DNA from: an uncultured virus (IMG/VR IMGVR_UViG_3300028393_000047)
Lineage: Duplodnaviria > Heunggongvirae > Uroviricota > Caudoviricetes
Length of the DNA stretch: 20,000 bases
IMG/VR virus record: IMGVR_UViG_3300028393_000047
Strand: one strand, 5' to 3'
This document shows positions 7,326 to 20,000 of this stretch, piece after piece (within the stretch, counting starts at the first letter, position 1; each line of letters starts with the position of its first letter). The translations under genes and the position numbers were made by a program. Under the pieces are notes generated by a model. That model did not search any database, was not told where the DNA came from, and saw nothing but the letters and a program-made list of their open reading frames with translations.

Positions 7326-8122
7326 AAAAAATATTAGTATCGTTATTCATCTTATTATCATTTAATGCATTTGCATGGACTCAACGTGCGCCTTTATCAC
7401 CTCAAGCATGTGCGGTTCATGCGCCTTATGGATTCCCTGTTGTGCAAAATGTTCAGCCAATTTGCAGAGAAGCATATCTTGTTGGATATGATGAACAAGC
7501 AAAGATTCCAAAGTTTGTAACATACGAATTAACTCCTCCGAATGCATTGGGTTGTGTAGCACGTACTAATGCATTTGTTGCAGATCAATCAGTACCTAAT
7601 GGTCCACGTCCAGATGATTATGTTGGCACGGGTTACGACAAAGGTCATGCGGCACCAGATGGTGATTTGTCTTGGGATGTTCAAGTTGAATATGAATCTT
7701 TCCTAATGACAAACATGTATCCACAAGCAGGTTCACTAAATCGTGGTGTTTGGAAATTACTCGAAACTTCTGTTCGTGGTTGGGCAGTTCAGCTAAATCA
7801 ACCTTTTACTATATACGTTGGTGCATTTTATGGTGCTGGTGATAAAACAATTGGGAATGGTGTTGTTGTTCCACATGGTTATTATAAAATTGTAATCAAT
7901 AATACAACACATGAGGTTGCTGGATGGAAATTTCCGCATGTACCACCATATCCAAATCTCGGAAATGACATGCGTGTATATCGTGTGCCAATCTCAGAAA
8001 TAGAAAAACAAGCTGGTGTAAAGTACTTATTTCCATCTAAAGCAAAAGAGTTAGAACCTGGTCAAGAATGGCCAGTTGATTTTGGTGCACTAACTAATGC
8101 TAAACGTAAAAAGTGTGGATAA
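7322..8122 (+). CDS. Exported DNA/RNA non-specific endonuclease (NucA/EndA-type beta-beta-alpha-Me)
   Basis: Start reassigned to ATG 7322 (ATGA overlap with nrdB stop); Sec signal MKKILVSLFILLSFNAFA; YDKGH.AP, SFLMTNMYPQ..SLNRGVWKLLE, VP..YYKIV. Confidence 0.9.
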   Translation: MKKILVSLFILLSFNAFAWTQRAPLSPQACAVHAPYGFPVVQNVQPICREAYLVGYDEQAKIPKFVTYELTPPNALGCVARTNAFVADQSVPNGPRPDDYVGTGYDKGHAAPDGDLSWDVQVEYESFLMTNMYPQAGSLNRGVWKLLETSVRGWAVQLNQPFTIYVGAFYGAGDKTIGNGVVVPHGYYKIVINNTTHEVAGWKFPHVPPYPNLGNDMRVYRVPISEIEKQAGVKYLFPSKAKELEPGQEWPVDFGALTNAKRKKCG

Positions 8123-8134
8123 AAGGATTAACAA

Positions 8135-8431
8135 ATGAAAAAAATATTAACTGTATTTTTGTTAATGGTGTCTGCTTCATCATTTGCACAGCACCATGGT
8201 TATCATCACGGTTATGGACTTAGACCATATAATTGGATTGGACCTACAATCATAGGCGGTGTTATTGGATACGAAATTGCACGACAACAACCTATAATTG
8301 TTCAGCAACAGCCCGTATTTGTTCAACAGCAACCCGTTATAATTCAACAGTCGCCGCAAGTGTGTACTGATTGGAAAGAAATTCAATATCCTGATGGCAA
8401 ACTTTATCGTGAAAGAACTTGCACACAATAA
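8135..8431 (+). CDS. Small exported protein with Gly-rich hydrophobic segment and QQP repeats
   Basis: Signal peptide ending SSFA; PTIIGGVIGYEIA; QQPIIV-QQQPVFV-QQQPVII; two C-terminal Cys; SD AAGGA. Confidence 0.75.
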   Translation: MKKILTVFLLMVSASSFAQHHGYHHGYGLRPYNWIGPTIIGGVIGYEIARQQPIIVQQQPVFVQQQPVIIQQSPQVCTDWKEIQYPDGKLYRERTCTQ

Positions 8432-8433
8432 TC

Positions 8434-8583
8434 ATGTGGAGACTATGGGCAAAAGCACTAGGTGAAAAGGCTAGTGCATGTGATAAAGAGTCGGACAGAG
8501 TTGCAATTATCAGAACAATTATTGTGCTTTGCTATATAATAACAAACATATTCATCGTAGCAGGCGTTATAAGGCATTGGTAA
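8434..8583 (+). CDS. Small membrane protein, 49 aa (not in ORF track)
   Basis: MWRLWAKALGEKASACDKESDRVAIIRTIIVLCYIITNIFIVAGVIRHW*; fills the gap 8432-8586. Confidence 0.75.
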   Translation: MWRLWAKALGEKASACDKESDRVAIIRTIIVLCYIITNIFIVAGVIRHW

Positions 8584-8586
8584 AAC

Positions 8587-9210
8587 ATGGCACACATCGT
8601 AGCAAATCTTCCCGCAGTTAAGTGTTTTGTACGCAAAGAATTTCTCTATGACTTTGAAAAGGGTCATGGAGAATTAGTTCCTTGCTGGTGGATAAGTATA
8701 AAGAGTTTGAGGGGACAAGCATTTCGCATAGAAGCATATCTAAATGAATACGGCGCATTATATGACAAATTGCCATTACACGCATTCTGCTGGAAAGAAA
8801 TAACAAATGAAATGCCCCTCGACCAATTACAATTGTGGGATTGTTTGTCATATGACATTACTGTAATTAAAAAAGCACAGTTGCAATCTCAAAAATGTAA
8901 ATTCAAAACTAAGGCTGGTGATTGGAGATACGGCGAGTATATGTTTACTGTCGATTCTGCACATCCAGATTTTAATGTACTAGATACAGGATTCAGCGAA
9001 GATGTTGAAGATCATAAGTCTTACAACTTTATTAAGTGTGATAATGGGCAATTTGCCGCACAGCCCAACAATAGAATGCTGATTCTAGAACCTAGTAGCA
9101 ACCCTAAAGAACTTAAGATTCCAGATTTCAAAGTAGCAACAAAGCGTTGGTCTGTAGAGACTGAAGCAAAATGGGCACTTGGAAGTACCAGTACTGTAAT
9201 GTACGAATAA
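8587..9210 (+). CDS. Conserved phage hypothetical protein
   Basis: 207-aa ORF in operon context; motifs VRKEFLYD...GHGE, GALYDKLP.HAF, LQLWDC, YMFTVD, GQFAAQPNNR familiar from aquatic phages; function unknown. Confidence 0.75.
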   Translation: MAHIVANLPAVKCFVRKEFLYDFEKGHGELVPCWWISIKSLRGQAFRIEAYLNEYGALYDKLPLHAFCWKEITNEMPLDQLQLWDCLSYDITVIKKAQLQSQKCKFKTKAGDWRYGEYMFTVDSAHPDFNVLDTGFSEDVEDHKSYNFIKCDNGQFAAQPNNRMLILEPSSNPKELKIPDFKVATKRWSVETEAKWALGSTSTVMYE

Positions 9211-9219
9211 GGAGAAAAA

Positions 9220-9432
9220 ATGACAACATATAACGTATTCTGCGATACATGCGAAGCTGAGTATTCAGTAACACCATCGGCAGGAGTATCAGATTTAATT
9301 CCAACAAATTGTTCCTATTGTGGCTCTCATATAGCAGAAGAAACAATTACGGAATTAGAAGAAGAATGGACTGATGAAGATTGGGATAGTCTAATAGAAG
9401 ATGAATGGAACACGGAAGAAGACAATAGATGA
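9220..9432 (+). CDS. Small Zn-ribbon protein with acidic tail
   Basis: CDTC...CSYCG; D/E/W-rich C-terminus; SD TAAGGAG. Confidence 0.75.
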   Translation: MTTYNVFCDTCEAEYSVTPSAGVSDLIPTNCSYCGSHIAEETITELEEEWTDEDWDSLIEDEWNTEEDNR

Positions 9433-9998
9433 TCGTAGCAGGAATAGATTATTCCCTAACATGTCCTGCAATGTGCGTATTTGATGATGAAGACGGAGAG
9501 TTTAGTTTTGAAAAATGTCATTTTTATTTTCTGACACAATCTAGAAAATATGATGTACAATTTAAAAATATAACAGGTAGATTTTTTGACCACGAAGGAA
9601 TGACAGATGTATTGCGATATGATGGTATATCAAATTTCTTTATCGATAAGTTGTTAGATACAGACAAAGATTGCCACGTATTCCTAGAAGGTTATTCTAT
9701 GGGGTCAAAGGGCAGAGTGTTTAATATTGCAGAGAACGCTGGTATTCTAAAATACCGATTATGGTTGTTTGCCGTAGAATGTACAGAAGTGCCACCAACA
9801 GTACTTAAGAAATATGCTACTGGTAAAGGCAATGCAAATAAAGAACGAATGCAAGAAGTCTTTGAAGAATTTAATGATATTCGTCTAAAGGAAGAACTAC
9901 ATATGACTGAGAAGCAATGGAATCCTTCTTCCGACTTAATTGATGCATATTGGCTATGCAAATATGGAGTTGATAGGTTGACATCCCAAACAAAGTAG
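9429..9998 (+). CDS. RuvC-like Holliday junction resolvase/nuclease
   Basis: GIDYS (catalytic D), FLEGYS (E), KKYATGKGNANK, DLIDAY (DxxD). Confidence 0.82.
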   Translation: MIVAGIDYSLTCPAMCVFDDEDGEFSFEKCHFYFLTQSRKYDVQFKNITGRFFDHEGMTDVLRYDGISNFFIDKLLDTDKDCHVFLEGYSMGSKGRVFNIAENAGILKYRLWLFAVECTEVPPTVLKKYATGKGNANKERMQEVFEEFNDIRLKEELHMTEKQWNPSSDLIDAYWLCKYGVDRLTSQTK

Positions 9999-10009
9999 AG
10001 TATACTCTA
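9978..10009 (+). promoter_or_regulatory. sigma70-type promoter upstream of clpP-like gene
   Basis: TTGACA (9978-9983), 17 bp spacer, TATACT (10001-10006) inside the perfect palindrome TAGAGTATACTCTA (9996-10009). Confidence 0.78.
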
Positions 10010-10033
10010 TATTACTGTAGAAAGTGAGTGATT

Positions 10034-10708
10034 ATGGACGAAGAAGAAAACAAGCTAGAGTCGATATTCAAGGACGATTCAAAAAAACCTAGACAACCAA
10101 AAATACTAGGGCAACTATACACATTGTATTTGGTTGGAGAAATAACTTCTCCTGAAGAATATGTTGACTGGTATGAAACAATCAGAAATGCAACAGAGAA
10201 TGATGTGATTAAAATTCACATCAATTCTCCTGGCGGCAATTTATTTACTGCTATACAACTAATGCGTGTCATGGCAGAATCTCAAGCAAATATTTTAACA
10301 TCAGTAGAAGGCGCATGTATGTCTGCGGCTACGATGGTGTTCTTATCTGGTGATGGATTTGAAATCTCAGAACATTCTATGTTTATGTTCCACAATTATT
10401 CTGGTGGAACTGGCGGCAAAGGTGGTGAGATGTACGATAATATCATGTATGAGCGTAAGTGGTCGGATAAATTTATGCGTAGCATATATGATGGGTTCTT
10501 AACTGACATTGAAATCAAGTCAATGTTAGAGAACAAAGATATCTGGATGGAACCAGAAGAAGTCTTTAAGCGTTTGAACAAACGTGGTGAAGATAGATTG
10601 AAAGGCGCAGAGGTTAAAACTAGAAAACCTAGAGTAAAATCTGCGGTTAAAAAAACACCTGCTAAAAAAGTGAGAAACGCAAATGTCAGAAAACCAAAAG
10701 AGTCCTGA
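10034..10708 (+). CDS. clpP: ClpP-like serine protease (S14 family) with basic C-terminal tail
   Basis: INSPGG, CMSAAT (Ser), FMFH (His), KDIW (Asp). Start is ATG 10034 or GTG 10028. Confidence 0.85.
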   Translation: MDEEENKLESIFKDDSKKPRQPKILGQLYTLYLVGEITSPEEYVDWYETIRNATENDVIKIHINSPGGNLFTAIQLMRVMAESQANILTSVEGACMSAATMVFLSGDGFEISEHSMFMFHNYSGGTGGKGGEMYDNIMYERKWSDKFMRSIYDGFLTDIEIKSMLENKDIWMEPEEVFKRLNKRGEDRLKGAEVKTRKPRVKSAVKKTPAKKVRNANVRKPKES

Positions 10709-11411
10709 TGGATTATTTCTAGTATCTTCAGCTATACACACAAATCATGGAGTATATAATTCTGACCAGCGCCTAGAACAAACAATAAACACACTAAAGT
10801 CAATTAAAGAAAGATGCGATGCAGATATCGTTCTGCTTGATGGTGGCTTAAAATCTCCAACTGACGAAGAGCGAAAAGTTTTAGAAGAATACGCAAAAGG
10901 AATTGTTAGTTTTTCTGACGCACCTTCTATCAAAGATATCTTAGCTATCCCAAGTCAAGACATTGTAAAAAACATGGCAGAGATTGTTATGTTTGGTTCA
11001 ACGTTTCAAGACATTGGTGTTTCTGGCGACTACAAAAAATACAAACGAATTTTTAAGATGAGTGGAAGATATGTGTTAAATGATAACTTCAATTATCAAA
11101 CACACATTGATGCGAAGGATAAAATTATCATTCGTGGTCCTTTCACTAGTCAATTCACATCAGCACAAACTGGTGGAGTCATATTTCAGTACATGAGTAG
11201 ACTGTGGAGTTTTGATTCTGAAATGCTTCCTAACATTGCAGAAGCATATGGTAGAATGTTCAAAGACATAAATATGGTTTTGACTGGCGGTGGATACATT
11301 GACATAGAGCATTTATTGTTTGTGCATTTAGACCCATCAAAAATTCAGAAGATTGCAAAAATTGGAATTGAAGGAAACATTGCACCCAATGGAAATGGAA
11401 TTTCAGAATGA
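10683..11411 (+). CDS. Hypothetical protein, possibly glycosyltransferase-like
   Basis: FLVSSAI...RLEQTINTLKSI...VLLDG, FKMSGRY.L and DIEH motifs resemble phage GT-A-like proteins. Function inferred only. Confidence 0.5.
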   Translation: MSENQKSPDGLFLVSSAIHTNHGVYNSDQRLEQTINTLKSIKERCDADIVLLDGGLKSPTDEERKVLEEYAKGIVSFSDAPSIKDILAIPSQDIVKNMAEIVMFGSTFQDIGVSGDYKKYKRIFKMSGRYVLNDNFNYQTHIDAKDKIIIRGPFTSQFTSAQTGGVIFQYMSRLWSFDSEMLPNIAEAYGRMFKDINMVLTGGGYIDIEHLLFVHLDPSKIQKIAKIGIEGNIAPNGNGISE

Positions 11412-12229
11412 AGTATAAAATTTTTCAGATTTGTTTTGAACAAAATCAAATACCACAAGTTGATCCTCTGCTAACACCATTTGACAATACAAAGAATGAA
11501 CGCCCTGAATTGAGAGAGTTTCATTCGTTCAATCGTATTATTGATGAAGGCTTTGCAGATGACTTAGATGCATGGGGTGTATTTGGTCCACGTTGGCAAG
11601 ACAAGATGCGCCATTCATCACAAGTTATTGTTGATGCGATTAAAGACAATTCAGAAGCAGACGTTTGGATTTTTAATCACGCAAGAGTACAAGATGCATT
11701 CATGTATAACGTATGGGAACAAGGTGAATACTTTCACAAAGGAATTCGTAGCGTTACTGGAACCGCACTTCAGGCTGGAGGTTATGATACTACTGCGCTT
11801 GAAGTTGTAATGACGGATGCTACATGTTATTGCAGTTACTTTGTCGCAAGAAAAGAATTCTGGTTAGACTATATCGCTTTTGTTAAAGACGTTAAAACAC
11901 ATCTAGAAGCATTGACTGGACTTGAAGCCGACATTTATCATGGTAGTGCAAACTATGCTAGAGACCCGAATCTGAATATGTTTCCGTTCATTGTAGAAAG
12001 ATTGTTCTCAACATTCTTGCACATGAATGGAAAATACAAAATCTATAGCAGAAAATATGATTACAGCGTTTATAAGGATCAAGTAAATGATTTTTATAAA
12101 ATTATCGAATCGATGAATGAGTTGAAGCGATTGACGTTGACTCAAGATTCTCCAGATTTGTTTCATCATTGGAATCAACTGAGAGTATATTTTATTAAAA
12201 TGTATCCGCAATTATTTAACTTGGACTAA
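11408..12229 (+). CDS. Hypothetical protein, possibly glycosyltransferase-like (DUF4422-like)
   Basis: CSYFVARKEFWLDY and FIVERLFS motifs; ATGA coupled to the upstream gene. Confidence 0.5.
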   Translation: MKYKIFQICFEQNQIPQVDPLLTPFDNTKNERPELREFHSFNRIIDEGFADDLDAWGVFGPRWQDKMRHSSQVIVDAIKDNSEADVWIFNHARVQDAFMYNVWEQGEYFHKGIRSVTGTALQAGGYDTTALEVVMTDATCYCSYFVARKEFWLDYIAFVKDVKTHLEALTGLEADIYHGSANYARDPNLNMFPFIVERLFSTFLHMNGKYKIYSRKYDYSVYKDQVNDFYKIIESMNELKRLTLTQDSPDLFHHWNQLRVYFIKMYPQLFNLD

Positions 12230-12230
12230 T

Positions 12231-12524
12231 ATGATTATCGATTTGTTTCGACCTACTATAGAATGGATTAAAGATGATTTTAAATCTAACCGAATTCGCT
12301 TTGTTGTTGAGTTGCTTGCTTGGGCTATTAGCATTGGTTGTAGCATTACTATGGCGAGTACAGTCCCCAATCCTCCTCTTCTTACTTTATATCCTGTCTG
12401 GATCACTGGCTGTGCTTTGTATGCTTGGGCTTCTTGGACTAGGAAATCTTTTGGCATGTTGGCTAACTATCTACTGCTAACAACAATTGATACCATAGGA
12501 CTAGTGAGAATGCTTACCGCTTGA
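12231..12524 (+). CDS. Small multi-pass (about 3 TM) membrane protein
   Basis: Three hydrophobic segments; starts 1 nt after the upstream stop. Confidence 0.7.
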   Translation: MIIDLFRPTIEWIKDDFKSNRIRFVVELLAWAISIGCSITMASTVPNPPLLTLYPVWITGCALYAWASWTRKSFGMLANYLLLTTIDTIGLVRMLTA

Positions 12525-12549
12525 CTTTCCATAGAACATGAGTTATAAT
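12521..12549 (+). promoter_or_regulatory. sigma70-type promoter
   Basis: TTGACT (12521-12526), 17 bp spacer, TATAAT (12544-12549); SD TAAGGAG downstream. Confidence 0.8.
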
Positions 12550-12574
12550 GAATGTATTCGCTTAAGGAGTATGT

Positions 12575-13066
12575 ATGGCAAATAAAACTTGGACAATTTC
12601 ACTGGAAGAAGATCCTGAAACAGGAGACTTGATTCTTCCTTTAAATGATGAGATACTAGAAGGAACTGGTTGGAAAACTGGTGACACTATTGATTGGATT
12701 GACAATAAAGATGGAAGCTGGACTATGAAGAAAATTGAAACTCAATGGGTTCTTGTTGAAGCTGTATCTATGTTCCGTGAACGTTACATGGTAGAAGTGC
12801 CTGTTGGCACAGATTATTATGGTAAAGACAAAGCAGATTGGGCACTTGATACTGTAACATTAAGCGAGGCTAAAGAATTTTCACAAGAACACTTAGGCGA
12901 AACTATTGTATCGCATCGTGTTGTTACAAAAGAAGAAGCACTAGCAATGTGCGATAAAGATAATGACTATGCAAGAGTGTGGAATGATGAATTGAAAATT
13001 AAAACATTTTTCACCAAAAAGGAAGAACATATTCGTGATGGAGATTATAATGACTCTACCCGATGA
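12575..13066 (+). CDS. Protein with N-terminal AbrB/MazE-like domain fused to an unknown domain
   Basis: GDLILPLNDEILEGTGWKTGDTIDW fits the swapped-hairpin pattern; strong SD. Confidence 0.65.
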   Translation: MANKTWTISLEEDPETGDLILPLNDEILEGTGWKTGDTIDWIDNKDGSWTMKKIETQWVLVEAVSMFRERYMVEVPVGTDYYGKDKADWALDTVTLSEAKEFSQEHLGETIVSHRVVTKEEALAMCDKDNDYARVWNDELKIKTFFTKKEEHIRDGDYNDSTR

Positions 13067-13283
13067 AAGATATCGTGCGTTGCGTTGTGGACAACAATTA
13101 CTTTTAGATTTATTGAATCCTAAAGTAACGCCTAAAGTTCCAAAATACATTCGTCAACGTGCATTAGGTATTTTGCGACACTATCCAGATTCATATCACT
13201 TCACACGGATTGTAGAAAAGTTGCCTGAAGATTTTTCTGTTAATAGTCCATTTGTAAAGGTGACGAATGAAAACGGAAACTGA
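13050..13283 (+). CDS. Conserved hypothetical protein (BPSL0761-family-like)
   Basis: Start reassigned to ATG 13050 (SD GGAG 13040-13043); MTLPDERYRA...PKVP..IR..A..ILRHYP. Confidence 0.7.
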   Translation: MTLPDERYRALRCGQQLLLDLLNPKVTPKVPKYIRQRALGILRHYPDSYHFTRIVEKLPEDFSVNSPFVKVTNENGN

Positions 13284-13437
13284 AAATGAAGTTGTGCATT
13301 TTTTACAAGAGTTGCTACATCCTGAAGGTTTTGGATGGTCAGTAACTGCTGAGGTTCGTAAAGAATCAAAGCGCCTTTTAATTATGATAGAAAGTGAAAG
13401 TAATGAGCAAGATTCAACAATTCGGCAGAGTCTATGA
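13267..13437 (+). CDS. Hypothetical protein, 56 aa (not in ORF track)
   Basis: MKTETENEVVHFLQELLHPEGFGWSVTAEVRKESKRLLIMIESESNEQDSTIRQSL*; SD AAGGTG; fills the gap 13284-13402. Confidence 0.6.
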   Translation: MKTETENEVVHFLQELLHPEGFGWSVTAEVRKESKRLLIMIESESNEQDSTIRQSL

Positions 13438-13705
13438 AACGTTTGATCCCAGTAATAAAAAACATAGAAAAATTTTCCATGATGTTTTAAGATATCGTAC
13501 ATGGGGTAGGTCTCCGATTTGTTTTTGGGCAGAAGATGATTCTTCTGGTTCTAACAGTTTGATGGATCAATGTATCAAAGCAATGGGAAGATACTATATA
13601 GAAAAAGAGTTTGGTGTGTTACTAGATGACGATCCTTTTGGTGGCGGAGAACTAACTCGCACTAGACCGAATCCGTGTCCTCATTCTTGGAAGAAATTAA
13701 AATGA
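13403..13705 (+). CDS. Hypothetical protein
   Basis: MSKIQQFGRVYETFDPSNKKHR...TWGRSP; ATG 13403 preferred over GTG 13394. Confidence 0.65.
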   Translation: MSKIQQFGRVYETFDPSNKKHRKIFHDVLRYRTWGRSPICFWAEDDSSGSNSLMDQCIKAMGRYYIEKEFGVLLDDDPFGGGELTRTRPNPCPHSWKKLK

Positions 13706-14427
13706 AAGTTTATATCGGACCCTATAAAAATTGGATAGGACCATATCAGATTGCCGAAGCACTTTGTTTTTGGGCAAAGCCTGTCGAGGATGAATATCGA
13801 TACAAACGTAAACCTGATTGGGTGCATAACTTTGGCACTTGGCTTTCTCATGGAACTACAAAAGAAGAAATTGTAGAGTCGAAAAACGCACCAGAAACTT
13901 GGCTATTGAAATTATGTCGATGGATAGAGTCTAAGCGTAATCGTAGGTCTTATATCAAGATTGACAAATACGACACATGGTCAATGGACCATACACTTGC
14001 AATGATTGTCTTGCCTATGCTAAAACAACTGCAAGCAACAAAGCATGGGTCGCCTAATGTTGATGATGAAGATGTGCCAGAAGAATTAAAGTCAACTTCA
14101 GCGCCAGCAAAAGAAAATGAATGGGATACTGATGAAAATCATTTCAAGCGTTGGGATTGGGTATTAGATGAAATGATTTTTGCATTCACTTGCAAGAATG
14201 ATGATTCTTGGCAAGAAGCATTTCGTTCCGGCGAACATGAGTTGATTTGGAAACCTGTTGATAAAGATGGCAATGAAGTCCCAAAAAAAGACGCTAAGTT
14301 GTTTCGAATGGAACATGGTCCTAACGACACATACAAGTGTGACTATGAAGGCATGAAAGTTGTTGAGACACGAATTCAAAACGGATTCCGTTTGTTTGGC
14401 AAATACTATCAAGCACTTTGGGATTAA
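13702..14427 (+). CDS. Conserved phage hypothetical protein
   Basis: Start ATG 13702 (ATGA overlap); IKIDKYDTWSMDHTLA...KHGSP.VDDEDVP...RWDWVLDEMIFAF...GF.LFGKYYQALWD. Confidence 0.78.
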   Translation: MKVYIGPYKNWIGPYQIAEALCFWAKPVEDEYRYKRKPDWVHNFGTWLSHGTTKEEIVESKNAPETWLLKLCRWIESKRNRRSYIKIDKYDTWSMDHTLAMIVLPMLKQLQATKHGSPNVDDEDVPEELKSTSAPAKENEWDTDENHFKRWDWVLDEMIFAFTCKNDDSWQEAFRSGEHELIWKPVDKDGNEVPKKDAKLFRMEHGPNDTYKCDYEGMKVVETRIQNGFRLFGKYYQALWD

Positions 14428-14433
14428 ACTATG

Positions 14434-14461
14434 CTAAATACTCCTATGATAATCATAGGAG
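14434..14461 (+). promoter_or_regulatory. T4-type late-promoter motif plus SD-sequestering hairpin upstream of endolysin
   Basis: CTAAATA at 14434-14440; perfect stem CTCCTATGA (14441-14449) / TCATAGGAG (14453-14461) containing SD AGGAG. Confidence 0.7.
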
Positions 14462-14467
14462 ATGGCG

Positions 14468-15088
14468 ATGGATTTTTTCACACAAGAAGCGGTAAAACAA
14501 TTAATTCCAAAAGTTAAAAATTTTGATGAGTGGTATAGTAATTTAGTTGAAATTTTACCACAATATGATATAGATACGTCAGCTAGAGTTGCCGCATTTA
14601 TGGCTCAATGCGGGCATGAATCTGGTGGGTTTACTACTCTACAAGAGAATTTAAATTATTCTGCAAAAGGTTTAGTTGGCACTTTTAAGAAATACTTTCC
14701 TAATGAGGCGGTAGCAAAACAATACGAACGTAGACCAGAAATGATTGCGAATCGTGTTTATGCTAATCGTATGGGTAATGGAGATGAAGCATCTGGAGAA
14801 GGTTGGTATTTTCGTGGTAGAGGAATCGTACAAATTACTGGAAAAAACAACTATACTAAATGCTCTCAAGCATTGTTTGAAGACAATACACTTGTTGATG
14901 ATCCAGACTTATTGCTTGAAGCAGAATATGCTATTCACTCTGCATGTTGGTTTTGGTCTGCGGCAAGACTAAATGAATTAGCTGATATAGGCGATATCAA
15001 AACAATGACAAAACGAATCAATGGTGGATACCTTGGTTTAGAAGAAAGAATCAATCATTACAATCATGCGATTGAAATTTTAACTTAA
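14468..15088 (+). CDS. GH19 (chitinase-like) endolysin
   Basis: AAFMAQCGHESGGF, ENLNYS, ANRVYANRMGNG, RGRGIVQITGKNNY, SACWFW, TKRINGG. ATG 14468 is 6 nt from the SD; ATG 14462 abuts it. Confidence 0.92.
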   Translation: MDFFTQEAVKQLIPKVKNFDEWYSNLVEILPQYDIDTSARVAAFMAQCGHESGGFTTLQENLNYSAKGLVGTFKKYFPNEAVAKQYERRPEMIANRVYANRMGNGDEASGEGWYFRGRGIVQITGKNNYTKCSQALFEDNTLVDDPDLLLEAEYAIHSACWFWSAARLNELADIGDIKTMTKRINGGYLGLEERINHYNHAIEILT

Positions 15089-15100
15089 AGGGCGATAATT

Positions 15101-15400
15101 ATGTTCAAGAAAATTAAAGAATTTTTTACAAGTAGCAAACCAACAGTAGAGGTAACAAATCAAGAAGTTACTTTAACTGCGGCAGATGTTGCAATTAAAA
15201 ATATCAAAGAAACTACTGCGTCTTTGGATGCTAAAGTAGAGGTTGCGCCTGCAATAGTAGAAACACCAGAACCAGTAAAAGAGCAAGCATGGACCACAAA
15301 GCCAGCGCCACCTGTTACTAAAACTGCTAAACCAAAAAAACAACAATCGACTAAAGCGACTACTACTGCGCCTAAGAAGAGAAAGCCAGCACCAAAATAA
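15101..15400 (+). CDS. Low-complexity Pro/Thr/Lys-rich hypothetical protein
   Basis: MFKKIKEFF amphipathic start and basic tail (APKKRKPAPK). Confidence 0.7.
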   Translation: MFKKIKEFFTSSKPTVEVTNQEVTLTAADVAIKNIKETTASLDAKVEVAPAIVETPEPVKEQAWTTKPAPPVTKTAKPKKQQSTKATTTAPKKRKPAPK

Positions 15401-15520
15401 ATGTACTTCAATATCATTATAACGTTTAATGATATATTATTTTTATTATCTATGATGCCGTTAGTTGCGGTATTCTGTGTGATGTTTAGTGACTGGTTGA
15501 AAGATAAAGACAGGTATTAA
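15401..15520 (+). CDS. Small single-TM protein, 39 aa (not in ORF track)
   Basis: MYFNIIITFNDILFLLSMMPLVAVFCVMFSDWLKDKDRY*; starts right after the upstream TAA and ends 3 nt before the convergent gene. Confidence 0.55.
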   Translation: MYFNIIITFNDILFLLSMMPLVAVFCVMFSDWLKDKDRY

Positions 15521-15523
15521 AAT

Positions 15524-16297
15524 TTATCTACCCACATAGATTTGCGGTTCGGATTCTCTACGGCGTGTCTCTTCACTTTTTGGAAATAATCCATCCCCGT
15601 ATTGAGGATATTTTTGTTGCCTATCATGTGCGACCCACATAAACATTCCACCCATGGTGAATATCACTATTAAAATAAACACACCTACTATAGCCTCTTG
15701 TTTTAATTGTCTCATACGTGCGGCTCTTCTTTTTGCTTGCACTTCTTCTGCTCTTATTTTATTCACCAAAAGAACTTTTTGTTCTTTACCCATCTCTTTC
15801 ATCATCTCTTCTACTTCAGTATACAAAGCACCTAACTCAGGAGGGCTTTGATAGACCATCAACTCACGCAATTCAGTTCCCATTTGTTCTAATTGTTTTT
15901 TCATTAGAACACGTTGTAGCGCACGTTTGCCTAAACTGTCATCACCCTCATATAATTTTGTTTTGCTTTTACGTTCTTCTTCTGCAAAGATAGCCATACA
16001 TTTGTGTAAATTATCATAGTATGTGCCGAGATGATTTCCAATTTCAGTATAAATGCCAACGGTCTCACCATCACGTTTGTTTAATTCTATAACACGATTC
16101 TTCTCTTCAATGTATGCATTACGTTGTGTGACTGTTGCTGGTTTGTCTTTATGATTATTTGCAAATTGTTCATCTAAATCTTTGAGTACTGCTTTAACGT
16201 CACCTGCCGCACCTTTAATGTCTTTATATAACTGGCACCCCTTTTTAACAGCCGCAACGGCGCCGTTAGCTAATGCAAAAAGGGTAATTGGATCCAT
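15524..16297 (-). CDS. Helical membrane-anchored protein, MDPIT paralog 2
   Basis: MDPITLFALA start, coiled coil, TM IVGVFILIVIFTMGGMFMWV; TAATG coupling to paralog 1. Confidence 0.78.
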   Translation of the reverse strand: MDPITLFALANGAVAAVKKGCQLYKDIKGAAGDVKAVLKDLDEQFANNHKDKPATVTQRNAYIEEKNRVIELNKRDGETVGIYTEIGNHLGTYYDNLHKCMAIFAEEERKSKTKLYEGDDSLGKRALQRVLMKKQLEQMGTELRELMVYQSPPELGALYTEVEEMMKEMGKEQKVLLVNKIRAEEVQAKRRAARMRQLKQEAIVGVFILIVIFTMGGMFMWVAHDRQQKYPQYGDGLFPKSEETRRRESEPQIYVGR

Positions 16298-16908
16298 TAT
16301 TGTATCGCTTTATCTCTTTCTTCACGTTCTCTTTGTTCTCTCTCTTTATGCTGACGCCTTACTAATGCGGCTCTCTCAGCAACTTTTTGTTCATAAATTC
16401 GTTTTTCTTCCATTGCACCATATACACCTATACCACCCATAACAATTGCAAAAAGAATAGCACCAAATCCAATAAAATACATTCCAAACATAAACATGTC
16501 TGCCATTTTCTTTTTATGCTCTAATCTTTTTTTCTCAGCGGCGGCTTCTGCTTCTGCACGTTCTTTAAATAAACGTGTGCGTTCTTTAATCATCTGTTCC
16601 CAAATTTGAGGTTTACCCAATTGCCAGATAATCATATCCTTAAGTTCACGTTCTTGTTCACGTAATGCATCACTATGCATAGCAATTTGAAGTGCTTCTT
16701 TACCTAATTCAGCATCAGTTTTACCTAGGCTTTGCGCCTTTGCTCTTTGTTTTGTTTTTTCACGATGAATAGCATCTGAGGATTCAAAGAATTTGCTGAA
16801 TTGCCCGACAAGACTATTAACGTCTTTGCCTAATGCGATTGCCTGCTTGATGTGACTGACTGCACTCTGGGCGGCTGAGAATGCAAGTCCTATTGTAATT
16901 GGATCCAT
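16297..16908 (-). CDS. Helical membrane-anchored protein, MDPIT paralog 1
   Basis: MDPITIGLAFSAA start, coiled coil, TM MFGMYFIGFGAILFAIVMGGIGVYG. Confidence 0.78.
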   Translation of the reverse strand: MDPITIGLAFSAAQSAVSHIKQAIALGKDVNSLVGQFSKFFESSDAIHREKTKQRAKAQSLGKTDAELGKEALQIAMHSDALREQERELKDMIIWQLGKPQIWEQMIKERTRLFKERAEAEAAAEKKRLEHKKKMADMFMFGMYFIGFGAILFAIVMGGIGVYGAMEEKRIYEQKVAERAALVRRQHKEREQREREERDKAIQ

Positions 16909-16913
16909 GACTA

Positions 16914-17111
16914 TTAGCCGCCAAGTTTACATATATCTTTATGTAATCGTTGAGAACAATCTTTCTTAGCCCATTCTATGCATTGGACTTTTCTATCATA
17001 AACATCGCCCGTCCACTTCCATCTGATACAAATATCAACGGATTCTTCTTTTTTTTCAGCACTTGCAGTCAAAATAATTAAACATAATATCGAAAGGATA
17101 TATGTTCTCAT
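16914..17111 (-). CDS. Small exported Cys-containing protein
   Basis: Signal peptide ending TASA; four Cys in the mature part; ATGA overlap with the GT stop. Confidence 0.68.
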   Translation of the reverse strand: MRTYILSILCLIILTASAEKKEESVDICIRWKWTGDVYDRKVQCIEWAKKDCSQRLHKDICKLGG

Positions 17112-18106
17112 TTTGCGCCTACCAAGTTATCCTTAAAAATTTTCCAAGCATTATCCCAAGTCCAACGTTTGCTTCCCTCAAATACGTTAATCCTATTTAA
17201 TTTTAATGCGGCATCTACAGCATCTTTTAAATTGTCACGCATACATCCAGTAATATCTTCATCTATAACATCTTTAGGACCTTGAACAGGATATGCGGCA
17301 ACAGGTGTGCCACATGCCATGGCTTCAATCATTACGATACCAAACGTTTCCCATTGACTAGGAAATACAAATACTTCTGCGTTAGCATAGTAACGTGCTA
17401 GATCAACACCAGTCTTGAATCCTGTAAATGTTACATCTGGATAACGCTTCTTATAAGTTTCTAACATAGGACCATCGCCTACCATGATCTTCAAGTATCC
17501 GGGATAATCCAATTCAAAAAACTTTTCAAGATTCTTTTCTTTACTAACACGACTAACACATAAGAGGTACTTGCCAGGAAAGTCTTCTCTCAACTCTGGT
17601 TTAAAAATTTCTCTATCAACACCTCTAGTCCAAGAGATAACCTCACCATCGAATCCATGTGATTTTAATTCTTTAACCATGCTGTCTGTGGTTGTCAATA
17701 CTTTACCAGAATGCTTATGAAACCAACGAACAAAGCGCCATGTTATGCTTTCCGGAATGCCAAACAGCTTCTTCAACCCTTCAGGAAACTTAGTATGATA
17801 AGCGGTATTGTGAGGAATATCAGCCAATGAAAGATATGCTCTAGCCCACAGACCAAGAGGACCCTCTGTGGCGACATGGATATAATCCGGAGATATCTCC
17901 TTAATCTTCTCGCCCAAGTTCCTCGGATAGGCAATCTTGACTTCGTTGTAGCCAGGGCAATTAATGTAGCTGAACCTCCTGGGATCCAACACCACAATGT
18001 TATAACCATCACTAGCCGCACAAATCTGAATGTTTTTGTAAGTTGTGACAACGCCATTTATTTGATCTGGTAGATTATCCGTTACTATTAATATTGTCTT
18101 TGTCAT
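17108..18106 (-). CDS. agt: GT4 glycosyltransferase, Agt-like (diacylglycerol glucosyl/glucuronosyl transferase)
   Basis: ILIVTD...QINGVVTT, HVATEGPLG, YHTKFPE, WTRGVD, SRVSKEKN, VFPSQWETFGIVMIEAMACGTPVAAYPV; directly downstream of a PlcP-like gene. Confidence 0.82.
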   Translation of the reverse strand: MTKTILIVTDNLPDQINGVVTTYKNIQICAASDGYNIVVLDPRRFSYINCPGYNEVKIAYPRNLGEKIKEISPDYIHVATEGPLGLWARAYLSLADIPHNTAYHTKFPEGLKKLFGIPESITWRFVRWFHKHSGKVLTTTDSMVKELKSHGFDGEVISWTRGVDREIFKPELREDFPGKYLLCVSRVSKEKNLEKFFELDYPGYLKIMVGDGPMLETYKKRYPDVTFTGFKTGVDLARYYANAEVFVFPSQWETFGIVMIEAMACGTPVAAYPVQGPKDVIDEDITGCMRDNLKDAVDAALKLNRINVFEGSKRWTWDNAWKIFKDNLVGAK

Positions 18107-18866
18107 TAATTTTTATCCATGTGATTATTTCCCAACGACCGTCCCAATGTTCTACAAGTGCTGTACAGGATTCTACCCAATCACCATCATTCATATAAAT
18201 GACACCATCTATTTCTTTAATTTCTGCGTGGTGTATATGCCCACATATAACACCATCATATCCACGCTTCTTACAGTATCCAGCTAGATTTTTTTCAAAG
18301 TGGAATATAAAGTCTACTGCTTTCTTTACTCTTGTTTTGAGATATTTACTAATACTAAAATACCCAAAACCAAAGCGGTGACGTATCCAATTGAATTTGC
18401 TATTAACCGATAAAATGAAATCATATGCTTTATCTCCCAAAAACGCTAGCCATGGAGCCAATCTTGTAATGCCATCAAACAAGTCACCATGCGTAACTAA
18501 GTAATGTTTACCATCTGCACCTATATGTTCTATTTGGTTGTGTATTTCTATTAACCCAAAACTAAATCCATATGGTATCATTGGTCTTAAAAATTCATCG
18601 TGGTTACCTGCTATGTAAATAACACGGGTACCACGCCTTGCATGTCCTAGAACACGCCTAACTACACCAGTATGACTTTGTTTCCAACGCCACTTGTTTT
18701 GCTGTATGCGCCATGCATCTATAATGTCACCCACCAAATATAAAGTATCGCAAGAATTATGTTTTAAAAAATTGTTAAGACTATCCGCTTTACAATCTTT
18801 TGTTCCCAAATGAACATCACTAATAAAGATACTTCGATACTTTTTTATATCGGAAGCCAAAGCCAT
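18075..18866 (-). CDS. plcP: Metallophosphoesterase, PlcP/LpxH2-type phospholipase C
   Basis: FISDVHLG, LVGDIID, GNHD, HGDLFD, CGHIH, NDGDWVESCTALVE; amphipathic LGDKAYD...R..FGFGYFSISKYLK.RVKKAV insertion. Confidence 0.82.
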   Translation of the reverse strand: MALASDIKKYRSIFISDVHLGTKDCKADSLNNFLKHNSCDTLYLVGDIIDAWRIQQNKWRWKQSHTGVVRRVLGHARRGTRVIYIAGNHDEFLRPMIPYGFSFGLIEIHNQIEHIGADGKHYLVTHGDLFDGITRLAPWLAFLGDKAYDFILSVNSKFNWIRHRFGFGYFSISKYLKTRVKKAVDFIFHFEKNLAGYCKKRGYDGVICGHIHHAEIKEIDGVIYMNDGDWVESCTALVEHWDGRWEIITWIKINDKDNINSNG

Positions 18867-19396
18867 AATCCTTGACTCATGAATATTCCTGCAAATAATC
18901 CAACAACAATACTAGCCCAATACAATGATATACTAACAGATAAGATACTAGCAGTTAATAATACGATTGCAATTTGAAATGCAGAACTAGCAAATGTTAA
19001 CCAAGGACTTGATTTGCGAATTTCATCACGTTCAGCTTCAAGTGCTTTTGCTTTAATAAACAATTCTTTTTTACCTTCACCCGTAGTTGGATCAGATTCA
19101 TACTTATCAATTTTAACCTTTAGTGCTTCAGCCTTTTTAAAATCTTTTTGTGCAATAGCATCATCCATACGCATTTCTGCTAGAGTTTGTTTAATACTCT
19201 TAGCTTGATAAAATGCCCAAGTATCATTTGCTCGGATTGTGTTATTTAAAACTTTACTGCTGTTACCATTTGATATATAAGTGTTAATTGCAAGCAAAGC
19301 GGCTAAAACAGTAATCAGCCATCCTGCTTTATCTTTAATTTGTGCTTCACGTTCACTACGTGACAATGGTTTCTGCTGTAATACTACTTCTGCCAT
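18845..19396 (-). CDS. DUF4337-like membrane protein
   Basis: TM ITVLAALLAI, DTWAFYQAKSIKQ, coiled coil, QIAIVLLTASIL plus a terminal TM. Confidence 0.72.
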   Translation of the reverse strand: MAEVVLQQKPLSRSEREAQIKDKAGWLITVLAALLAINTYISNGNSSKVLNNTIRANDTWAFYQAKSIKQTLAEMRMDDAIAQKDFKKAEALKVKIDKYESDPTTGEGKKELFIKAKALEAERDEIRKSSPWLTFASSAFQIAIVLLTASILSVSISLYWASIVVGLFAGIFMSQGLWLWLPI

Positions 19397-19397
19397 T

Positions 19398-19748
19398 TTA
19401 GTTTTCCTTCATTGGTCCAATTTTTTTCGTTACACCTGCTCTGTCTTCAAGAATAGCAATGTGTGTTCTATTCTCCATAATAGCATCACGATTTTTTTGA
19501 ATTTCTTTTTCTAAATCTTGACGTAATTTTTCACGTGCTAATTCAGCACCGCTATTGCTAGCCTGCTTATTATCTGTAGTAACAACTAAACTCACTTTTT
19601 GATTCAGAATGGTTACGTCATGTTGGATAGAACCTAATGCTTGAATTAAATATCCAACTGAACCAACTAATAAAGGTAATAGAGCAAATAATAATTTCTC
19701 TATAAACGCACCTTTTTCATGTGCTTGTTCTGCTGTTTTTTCTGCCAT
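19398..19748 (-). CDS. Single-TM coiled-coil protein
   Basis: LLFALLPLLVGSVGYLI followed by a heptad region; SD AGAGGA; 1-nt gaps to both neighbours. Confidence 0.75.
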   Translation of the reverse strand: MAEKTAEQAHEKGAFIEKLLFALLPLLVGSVGYLIQALGSIQHDVTILNQKVSLVVTTDNKQASNSGAELAREKLRQDLEKEIQKNRDAIMENRTHIAILEDRAGVTKKIGPMKEN

Positions 19749-19749
19749 T

Positions 19750-19899
19750 TTATTTTCCTCTGTTATGTAAATCGAATAATGATTTGACTTTTTCTTCTAA
19801 TACCCCGATTCGCACGTCCATTTTAGCCAAAACTATGACTAAAGTAATGAATGCTAAGAATACTGGCCATGCTTTTAAAAGTATCTCTATAATGTCCAT
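19750..19899 (-). CDS. Small single-TM protein, 49 aa (not in ORF track)
   Basis: MDIIEILLKAWPVFLAFITLVIVLAKMDVRIGVLEEKVKSLFDLHNRGK*; SD GGGAGG (complement of 19909-19914). Confidence 0.75.
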   Translation of the reverse strand: MDIIEILLKAWPVFLAFITLVIVLAKMDVRIGVLEEKVKSLFDLHNRGK

Positions 19900-19929
19900 A
19901 ACTATTATCCTCCCTAGGACTTGACAACA

Positions 19930-19937
19930 TATTTATG
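19930..19937 (-). promoter_or_regulatory. T4-type late-promoter motif heading the minus-strand operon
   Basis: CATAAATA on the - strand, about 30 nt upstream of ATG 19899 (T4 consensus TATAAATA). Confidence 0.6.
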
Positions 19938-20000
19938 GTAAACCGAGTTTTTGATGCGTTTCAGAGGGGGATTTTTGTTGTTTTTGAGCAACAAAGCCAA

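What the first reader, a model, noticed from the sequence alone, without database searches (positions are those of the whole stretch)
17108..18866. Phage-encoded PlcP + Agt membrane lipid-remodelling module
Seen: an overlapping (32 nt) metallophosphoesterase + GT4 pair with intact motifs inside a T4-like phage genome. The phosphoesterase has GNHD rather than the GNRD of E. coli-type LpxH, plus NDGDWVESCTALVE. Established: in bacteria (Sinorhizobium PlcP, Agrobacterium Agt, SAR11 and other marine heterotrophs) PlcP cleaves phospholipids to diacylglycerol and Agt converts it to phosphorus-free glucosyl/glucuronosyl-DAG under P starvation. Inference: the phage may replace host phospholipid with glycolipid, either freeing P for DNA synthesis or changing the envelope (superinfection, lysis timing). 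I do not know of this as a characterised phage auxiliary system, but cannot confirm novelty.
Basis: partly seen in the sequence, partly recalled or inferred. Interest (0 to 1): 0.88.

Follow-up and report, generated by a model that had tools for sequence, protein, structure and literature searches.

The report
Phage membrane-lipid swapping gene pair
This freshwater bacterial virus carries two genes that, in bacteria, strip phosphorus out of membrane lipids and replace them with sugar lipids, and many related viruses place them under a phosphate-starvation switch, which suggests that viruses can mine their host's membrane for phosphorus.

Summary
Confirmed and extended. The window is a freshwater T4-like phage. 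18075-18866(-) is a PlcP-type phosphoesterase: all six PlcP motifs including GNHD, 51-56% identical to S. meliloti and P. aeruginosa PlcP, 23% over 120 residues to E. coli LpxH. 17108-18106(-) is an Agt-clade GT4: 13 of 14 mutationally tested Pelagibacter residues are kept, but the Agt signature Asp is Glu in 76 of 76 phage-clade copies. It is no chimera: complete phage genomes carry it, and at least 594 viral stretches encode the phosphoesterase. New here: the glycosyltransferase slot is swappable (GT4 or a GT2 that sits beside plcP, phoX and phoD in SAR86). Pho boxes lie at a fixed distance before 41 of 111 related phage plcP genes (12 of 1619 other genes, mostly pstS). The window's own copy lacks that box and sits in a late-type operon. 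Cultured pelagiphage Mosig carries plcP beside pstS and grows on HTCC1062, which lacks plcP. No paper on phage plcP was found; databases label it lpxH. Activity and product are untested.

The parts
18075..18866 (-). PlcP-type metallophosphoesterase (phospholipase C), 263 aa; annotated elsewhere as UDP-2,3-diacylglucosamine hydrolase/LpxH
   Evidence: Motifs; 51% to S. meliloti and 56% to P. aeruginosa PlcP-type proteins, 23% over 120 aa to E. coli LpxH; trees; LpxH-like fold, model pLDDT 76.6; median dN/dS 0.045 in 50 unsaturated of 118 pairs
17108..18106 (-). Agt-clade GT4 glycosyltransferase, 332 aa, phage variant with WETFG (Glu253) in place of TDTFG
   Evidence: 38% to P. aeruginosa Agt1, 27% to Agt2; 13 of 14 residues tested in Pelagibacter GTcp kept; trees; GT-B fold, pLDDT 96.5; median dN/dS 0.118 in 74 of 75 pairs
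18845..19396 (-). DUF4337 membrane protein, 183 aa, overlapping the plcP start by 22 nt; a frequent but not obligatory neighbour
   Evidence: Pfam PF14235; hydrophobic segments and overlap; neighbour clusters
19398..19748 (-). 116-aa ORF with one hydrophobic segment, same run of genes
   Evidence: no Pfam or PHROG match
19750..19899 (-). 49-aa ORF with N-terminal hydrophobic segment and a GGAGG ribosome-binding site, first gene of the run
   Evidence: translation and upstream sequence; hydrophobicity
19930..19936 (-). ATAAATA, T4-late-type promoter element ahead of the minus-strand gene run (function inferred)
   Evidence: one of 3 matches in the window; the same element lies 4-8 nt before the ATG of many related plcP genes; the T4 late consensus TATAAATA is recalled
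15524..17111 (-). Three co-oriented downstream ORFs (65, 203, 257 aa; the last two with a hydrophobic segment); probably the same transcript, not shown to belong to the lipid module
   Evidence: common in related phages with variable position

Best explanation
The pair is a phage auxiliary metabolic module for phosphorus economy. The PlcP homologue, a dimetal phosphoesterase acting at the inner membrane, cuts the phosphate-bearing head group from host PG/PE and leaves diacylglycerol. The adjacent glycosyltransferase caps the diacylglycerol with a sugar from a UDP-sugar, so the membrane stays a sealed bilayer while the head-group phosphorus returns to the cytoplasm for nucleotide and genome synthesis. 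Across the family the host PhoB system switches the module on through a Pho box before plcP, as it does for phage pstS; this genome's copy has moved into a late-type operon without a box and is probably expressed regardless of phosphate. Shown: gene identity by sequence and tree, viral origin, fixed gene order, purifying selection, Pho-box enrichment in relatives. Inferred: enzyme activities, the lipid made, PhoB binding, timing, and any gain in burst size.
For: PlcP motifs DXH, GDXXD, GNHD, HGD, GHIH in 112 of 112 distinct phage copies and GDW in 110, matching the PlcP definition in the PMC9239053 Fig. S5 legend. Identity and trees place it with PlcP. A glycosyltransferase follows plcP within three genes in 107 of 112 distinct copies (GT4 67, GT2 40; 4 at contig ends; the one 'no GT' locus, L155, has a GT4 running off the contig) while upstream neighbours vary. 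Pho box (at most 1 mismatch) in 41 of 111 upstream regions against 1 antisense, 2 further upstream, 0 inside the gene and 12 of 1619 other ORFs, of which 8 are pstS; pstS 9 of 9. In 5 near-complete phage genomes, 5 of 6 exact boxes precede plcP or one unknown gene that follows the module. The alternative GT2 partner sits beside plcP and phoX in 3 of 3 SAR86 genomes found, with phoD beyond in one. Phage Mosig has plcP divergent from pstS. Host-PhoB control of cyanophage pstS is reported (passage).
Against: No activity or expression data. The window's own plcP has no Pho box with 2 or fewer mismatches on its strand in 3.5 kb upstream, and 0 of 9 DUF4337-preceded copies have one; 70 of 111 upstream regions lack it. 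The relaxed pattern and the offset were chosen after seeing the data and the phages are related, so the Fisher p of 7e-42 is inflated; the fixed literature consensus gives 12 of 111 sense against 0 antisense at 3 or fewer mismatches. Genome-wide the exact pattern is not enriched in number (6 against 4 for the reversed control), and before bacterial plcP it is met at 1 mismatch in only 5 of 46 against 2 antisense. D256E cut GTcp activity by more than 90% and the phage GT4 has that Glu. The AU test did not reject a tree with the window clade next to LpxH (p 0.19), which only shows that the root inside the PlcP group is unresolved. pstS is within 5 kb in just 8 of 112 loci. The host is unknown.
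Confidence: 0.72

Rival explanations
1. Same chemistry, different purpose: late in infection the phage changes membrane charge and packing (glycolipid for PG/PE) to time lysis, stabilise the infected cell, or block superinfection. This may be the main role of the window's own copy.
For: The window copy lies in a run of small membrane proteins behind an ATAAATA element with no Pho box. ATAAATA lies within 200 nt upstream in 36 of 111 relatives, 35 of them just before the ATG, against 7 antisense and 249 of 1737 other ORFs. Host lipid composition affects phage attachment in Ruegeria (abstract).
Against: A box shared specifically with pstS is explained by phosphorus stress, not by lysis timing. 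ATAAATA sits where the -10 element of a PhoB promoter would be, so it need not mean late expression. The membrane-protein neighbours are not conserved next to plcP.
Confidence: 0.15
2. The enzymes act on another substrate, such as a lipid A or LPS precursor or a polyprenyl-linked sugar, as the database label lpxH implies, and modify the host surface.
For: The nearest solved structures are all LpxH. Public annotations read 'UDP-2,3-diacylglucosamine hydrolase'. The GT4 active-site loop differs from Agt and the GT2 partner has no characterised close relative. The same phage carries sugar-nucleotide genes.
Against: No PlcP structure appeared among the hits, so LpxH is the default match; identity is about 20% against 51-56% to PlcP. 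The LpxH Arg is His in 112 of 112. The same lpxH label is given to the P. aeruginosa and S. meliloti PlcP records.
Confidence: 0.08
3. plcP is functional but this GT4 is weak or dispensable because of the Asp-to-Glu change; the host recycles the diacylglycerol.
For: D256E lost more than 90% of GTcp activity; 128 of 150 nearest cluster representatives have Asp, 3 Glu, 19 unparsed; Mosig has no GT match and 10 of 63 distinct loci of the Mosig-query set have none nearby.
Against: Glu is invariant in 76 of 76 under purifying selection; P. aeruginosa Agt2, which makes glucuronosyl-DAG, has Glu there; Asp and Glu alternate among close phage relatives that share the preceding Trp.
Confidence: 0.04
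4. Assembly chimera or host DNA in a viral contig.
For: No single Logan contig spans the 8-kb stretch.
Against: Three separate IMG/VR records match at 99.9-100%; contigs of run X1 bridge 16168-17483, 17932-18314 and 18558-19524 at about equal depth; GC3 of 0.26 and 0.34 lies inside the 0.18-0.35 range of the other window genes; terminal-repeat genomes with gp23 carry the module.
Confidence: 0.01

Closest known systems
Bacterial PlcP-Agt lipid remodelling (S. meliloti SMc00171, Phaeobacter MED193, Pelagibacter HTCC7211 PB7211_983/960, A. tumefaciens Atu2297, P. aeruginosa PA3219/PA3218/PA0842, M. trichosporium OB3b)
   Same: Same two families, same gene order and strand, all PlcP motifs, 13 of 14 tested GTcp residues, and a Pho box upstream in many relatives.
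   Different: Virus-encoded; forms its own clade (100/99) at most about 61% identical to any cellular copy examined; GT4 has WETFG; the partner slot is often a GT2; an ATAAATA element abuts the start codon; this copy has no Pho box.
Host-PhoB-controlled cyanophage pstS/phoA (Zeng and Chisholm 2012, seen through passages of bioRxiv 10.1101/2021.07.20.453049)
   Same: Phage phosphorus genes wired to the host phosphate-starvation regulator; pstS in these phages carries the same box (9 of 9).
   Different: PstS and PhoA bring in outside phosphate; this module would recycle phosphorus already in the host membrane, and the hosts appear to be heterotrophs (host not identified).
LpxH, UDP-2,3-diacylglucosamine hydrolase (TIGR01854, PRK05340, KEGG K03269)
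   Same: Same calcineurin-like fold with helical lid and dimetal site; nearest solved structures.
   Different: GNHD for GNRD; 30.7 and 42.7 bits against cut-offs of 190 and 134; separated by a 3.5 changes-per-site branch.

Membership tests
PlcP phospholipase C | Motifs DXH, GDXX(D/H), GNHD, HGD, GHIH, GDW with His in the third motif | tested here: met
   Definition from PMC9239053 Fig. S5 legend; all present; 112 of 112 phage copies have GNHD
PlcP phospholipase C | Sequence similarity and grouping with characterised PlcP (46-51% among characterised members) | tested here: met
   51% and 56% to S. meliloti and P. aeruginosa copies (orthologues from other strains, identified by gene order, locus tags recalled); trees
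PlcP phospholipase C | Next to a non-phosphorus lipid synthesis gene | tested here: met
   Overlapping Agt-clade GT4
PlcP phospholipase C | Pho box upstream | tested here: inconclusive
   Not met for the window's copy; met in 41 of 111 relatives
PlcP phospholipase C | Mn-dependent release of diacylglycerol from PG/PE | not testable with these tools
   Needs an enzyme assay
Agt (GTcp/Atu2297 clade of GT4) | His104, Thr162, Arg163, Trp320 (acceptor side) and Gly16, Gly82, Gly85, Arg190, Lys195, Thr257, Phe258, Gly259, Glu264 (donor side) | tested here: met
   All 13 present, mapped through the motifs given in the paper because the GTcp sequence itself was not in hand
Agt (GTcp/Atu2297 clade of GT4) | Signature Asp256 in FPSXTDTFG | tested here: not met
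   Glu253 in FPSQWETFG; 76 of 76 phage-clade copies. It is therefore filed as an Agt-clade variant, not as Agt
Agt (GTcp/Atu2297 clade of GT4) | Groups with plcP-linked GT4 and away from other GT4 | tested here: met
   37-44% to plcP-adjacent bacterial GT4, nested among Asp-type proteins with Agt1 inside and Agt2 outside
Agt (GTcp/Atu2297 clade of GT4) | Makes glucosyl- or glucuronosyl-diacylglycerol | not testable with these tools
   Needs lipidomics
LpxH (lipid A) | GNRD motif and family cut-off score | tested here: not met
   GNHD; far below cut-offs
Viral auxiliary metabolic gene | Lies in phage DNA among phage genes, conserved across phages, under purifying selection | tested here: met
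Viral auxiliary metabolic gene | Expressed in infection and raises phage yield | not testable with these tools
   Needs infection experiments

The most novel reading that the evidence does not exclude
Large T4-like phages of lakes and seas carry their own small Pho regulon (plcP with a swappable glycosyltransferase, pstS, and an unknown acidic protein) through which they use the host PhoB signal to strip phosphorus from host membrane phospholipids for genome synthesis, even in hosts that cannot remodel lipids themselves, and they make glycolipids with phage-specific enzymes (a Trp-Glu GT4 and an uncharacterised GT2). The module has been overlooked because it is annotated as the lipid A gene lpxH.
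Probability: 0.5. Interest if true: 0.86.

Novelty: new variant of a known kind. Interest (0 to 1): 0.74.

Why it matters
Phage yield falls under phosphorus limitation, and the known viral answers (PstS, PhoA) take phosphate from outside. This would be a viral route to an internal pool, the host membrane. A rough estimate from recalled cell dimensions (a few million phospholipids in a small planktonic cell; 3.2e5 P atoms in a 160-kb genome) puts that pool at several to about ten virions. It would also mean that some 'lpxH' entries in viral gene catalogues are phosphorus genes, that plcP counts used as a phosphorus-stress marker include viral copies, and that part of the glycolipid in P-poor water may be made by infected cells. 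A cultured test pair exists: phage Mosig has plcP and pstS and its host HTCC1062 lacks plcP (PMC4796936).

Tried and rejected
No whole genome is held for the window, so completeness and pstS/phoH content of this phage are open; G001 is about 35% complete. Wei et al. 2018 on PlcP residues is not held; its key result was taken from the Fig. S5 legend of PMC9239053. A primer scan for the OB3b plcP-agt locus returned 34 loci, none from OB3b; some held other plcP-agt pairs that entered the trees. A guessed PHROG family found nothing. Strict Pho-box and TATAAATA scans of the window were at chance or empty, as was the sigma-70 scan (17 against 17.6 expected). The TGTMAY pattern found nothing in the Mosig pstS-plcP spacer; TTAAC repeats 11 nt apart are visible there by eye, and a YTTAAY pattern was met at 1 mismatch in 15 of 60 against 4 antisense and 0 in the gene: a lead only. 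Host assignment failed: primase at most 43% and nrdA at most 61% to any cultured phage; phage PstS at most 55% to named plasmid records and its 120 best hits carry no organism. No RNA holder was listed. AU tests settled neither the root (p 0.19) nor a single viral origin (p 0.066). The careful mixture-model tree did not finish; one search is the quick tree. No complex prediction was run. Literature: searches showed no paper on a phage plcP or plcP-agt; (plcP + viral + auxiliary metabolic gene) gave 0, and none of the 30 listed of 2,696 contained plcP, a weak test. Subscription papers and bioRxiv supplements (for example AMG tables of 10.1101/2024.02.06.579183) could not be seen and may list the gene.

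Full report
Observation. The two ORFs are real and at the stated places: 18075-18866(-), 263 aa, and 17108-18106(-), 332 aa, overlapping by 32 nt. Pfam calls them a calcineurin-like phosphoesterase and a GT4. The window is a T4-like phage (primase, nrdA/B, resolvase, ClpP-like protease, GH19 endolysin). Record G001 matches window 7363-20000 at 99.87% and carries gp32, gp59 and RNase H; L002 matches 11,923 nt at 99.98%. Of 20 listed sequencing runs, 9 hold at least half of the sampled words; 6 of these are labelled freshwater metagenome and 3 metagenome.

Not a chimera. Contigs of run X1 bridge the GT4 to downstream genes (16168-17483), the GT4/plcP junction (17932-18314) and plcP to upstream genes (18558-19524) at about equal depth, though none spans the whole 8 kb. 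GC3 is 0.26 and 0.34, inside the 0.18-0.35 range of eight other window genes and far from 0.79-0.93 in the bacterial references. Five of 5 large records tested have gp23, two with terminal repeats: G016 (162 kb, plcP+GT4) and G014 (203 kb, plcP+GT2).

The phosphoesterase is PlcP-type. The PlcP motifs as defined in the Fig. S5 legend of PMC9239053 (supplement passage), including the His that LpxH lacks, are all present and hold in 112 of 112 distinct phage copies (GDW in 110). It is 51% identical to S. meliloti and 56% to P. aeruginosa PlcP-type proteins and 23% over 120 residues to E. coli LpxH. The references are copies from other strains, identified by gene order; their locus tags are recalled. 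Characterised PlcPs share 46-51% with each other (passages). In the careful 28-row tree a 100/100 branch of 3.5 changes per site separates four LpxH from all 24 others; the window clade has 100/99. The AU test did not reject placing the window clade next to LpxH (p 0.19), so the root inside the PlcP group is open, and a single viral origin is neither shown nor rejected (p 0.066). GNHD alone is not diagnostic: a Bacteroidota LpxH-like protein has it. Sampling 300 and 301 genomes of two proteobacterial classes gave 82 and 108 with a match, the best cellular ones at 55-59% (the tallies include four unpublished genomes, on which no claim rests). Matches of 70-86% in bacterial bins (L161-L165, L210) fall in the phage clade or share its neighbours and are read as mis-binned phage contigs. 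No donor or host could be named.

The GT4 is an Agt-clade variant. Section 9 of bioRxiv 10.1101/2021.03.25.437072 lists the residues tested in Pelagibacter GTcp. Thirteen of 14 are kept, including the acceptor-side His, Thr-Arg and Trp; the signature Asp256 is Glu, preceded by Trp, in 76 of 76 distinct phage-clade copies, against Asp in 19 of 24 others. D256E cost GTcp more than 90% of its activity, which counts against plain Agt function. But P. aeruginosa Agt2, which makes glucuronosyl-DAG (passages), has Glu there; Asp and Glu alternate among close phage relatives; and median dN/dS is 0.118 (74 of 75 pairs). Trees nest it among plcP-adjacent Asp-type GT4. I file it as a variant whose sugar is unknown.

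Spread and gene order. Of the 80 GT4 loci, 73 hold plcP and the other 7 have the contig end within 1.1 kb upstream. Of the 80 plcP loci, 14 have the GT4, 60 an unrelated 235-253-aa GT2 in the same slot, and 6 end at the contig edge or were not called. Upstream neighbours vary freely. A scan with the Mosig protein gave 80 more loci; of 63 distinct ones, 35 have GT4, 11 GT2, 10 none nearby, 7 end. The only cellular close relatives of the GT2 among 12 loci found were three SAR86 single-cell genomes (60-62%), where it overlaps plcP and neighbours phoX, with phoD beyond in one. Among cultured phages the phosphoesterase matched Pelagibacter phage Mosig (49%), where it is divergent from pstS, and Synechococcus phage S-SRM01 (35%); both are annotated as UDP-2,3-diacylglucosamine hydrolase and have no GT beside it.

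Regulation. Aligning upstream regions showed direct repeats 11 nt apart, YTGTMAY, starting about 69-92 nt before the DxH codon, followed by a TAAATA element just before the ATG. With at most one mismatch the box occurs in 41 of 111 distinct regions, against 1 antisense, 2 further upstream, 0 inside the gene and 12 of 1619 other ORFs; 8 of those 12 are pstS and 2 an unknown gene that follows the module. By family: pstS 9 of 9, the unknown gene 12 of 13, and 0 for eleven other neighbour families. It occurs with both partners (GT4 26 of 66, GT2 12 of 40) and in 7 of 60 of the Mosig-query set. In five near-complete genomes 5 of 6 exact boxes precede plcP or the unknown gene. Cautions: pattern and offset were fitted after looking; the phages are kin; the literature consensus CTGTCAT gives 12 of 111 against 0 at three mismatches; the exact pattern is no commoner genome-wide than its reversed control (6 against 4); bacterial plcP meet it less often (5 of 46 against 2). 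The window's own copy has no box, like all 9 DUF4337-preceded copies; it is the fourth gene behind an ATAAATA at 19930-19936, after three small membrane proteins.

Mechanism. Most likely PlcP cuts PG/PE to diacylglycerol and a phosphorylated head group, the GT caps the diacylglycerol so that the bilayer holds, and the phosphorus goes to phage nucleotides beside the nrdA/B supply; across the family host PhoB turns this on, as reported for cyanophage pstS (passage). The chemistry follows from the bacterial pathway (PMC4796936 passages and section 16); purpose and timing are inferred. Confidence 0.72. The main rival, a late envelope or lysis role, fits this genome's copy and is not exclusive.

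Novelty. Ten searches showed no description of a phage plcP or plcP-agt. The Mosig announcement (part 1 of 2 read) does not discuss the gene; a Baikal study lists lpxH as an LPS-pathway viral gene (table passage; sequence not seen, so its identity is unverified); PMC10653327 names lpxH once (passage not shown); PMC12379486 treats pelagimyophage pstS only (passages); the review PMC9804370 treats host remodelling and phage receptors (passages); PMC9938194 was seen as abstract; PMC13691135 and 10.1101/2024.02.06.579183 gave nothing relevant in the passages seen. Wei et al. 2018 and Zeng and Chisholm 2012 were seen only through other papers. The enzymes are a known kind; a viral, PhoB-wired, partner-swapping form appears undescribed. 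Verdict: new variant of a known kind, interest 0.74.

Noticed in passing
L043:11709-12356(+), L420-L422: An unknown 215-230-aa Ala/Val/Glu-rich phage protein with similar coiled-coil-like ends often follows the module and has a Pho box in 12 of 13 copies. No Pfam match; only viral hypothetical clusters in the Atlas. A candidate new phage phosphate-starvation gene.
   Followed up: partly
P0003, P0004, P0335-P0346: The nearest named non-viral relatives of the phage GT4 are from freshwater oomycetes (Saprolegnia, Achlya, Thraustotheca, Aphanomyces; 47-51% identity, two paralogues), nested 99/99 with the phage clade and unnamed environmental proteins. Possible old gene transfer; direction not tested.
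   Followed up: partly
L412-L414: SAR86 single-cell genomes carry GT2-plcP next to phoX (and phoD in L412): an uncharacterised candidate lipid glycosyltransferase in an abundant marine clade.
   Followed up: partly
L092:9111-10001(+) and 11 other loci: A RimK-like ATP-grasp ligase is inserted between plcP and the GT4 in 12 loci; a BPL_N-domain protein (46 viral loci) and a fatty acid desaturase (18) are frequent neighbours. None has a Pho box.
   Followed up: no
G010 (L026 and L106): One 525-kb record holds two modules, plcP+GT2 and plcP+GT4, about 100 kb apart; jumbo phage or merged contig not resolved.
   Followed up: no
L161-L165, L210, L411: Contigs inside bacterial bins (Haliscomenobacter, Polynucleobacter, Fischerella, Bacteroidia, Crocinitomicaceae) carry the phage-clade module among phage-like genes; probably mis-binned phage DNA.
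   Followed up: partly
window 10028-12229(+): ClpP-like protease followed by two ORFs (242 and 273 aa) without family match that look like glycosyltransferase-related proteins by eye.
   Followed up: no
window 15524-16908(-): Two ORFs (257 and 203 aa) with similar MDPIT starts and a hydrophobic segment, common in these phages, function unknown.
   Followed up: no
L160:4995-5699: Cyanophage S-SRM01 has a divergent copy with GNHE and no glycosyltransferase beside it, although PlcP is largely absent from cyanobacteria.
   Followed up: no
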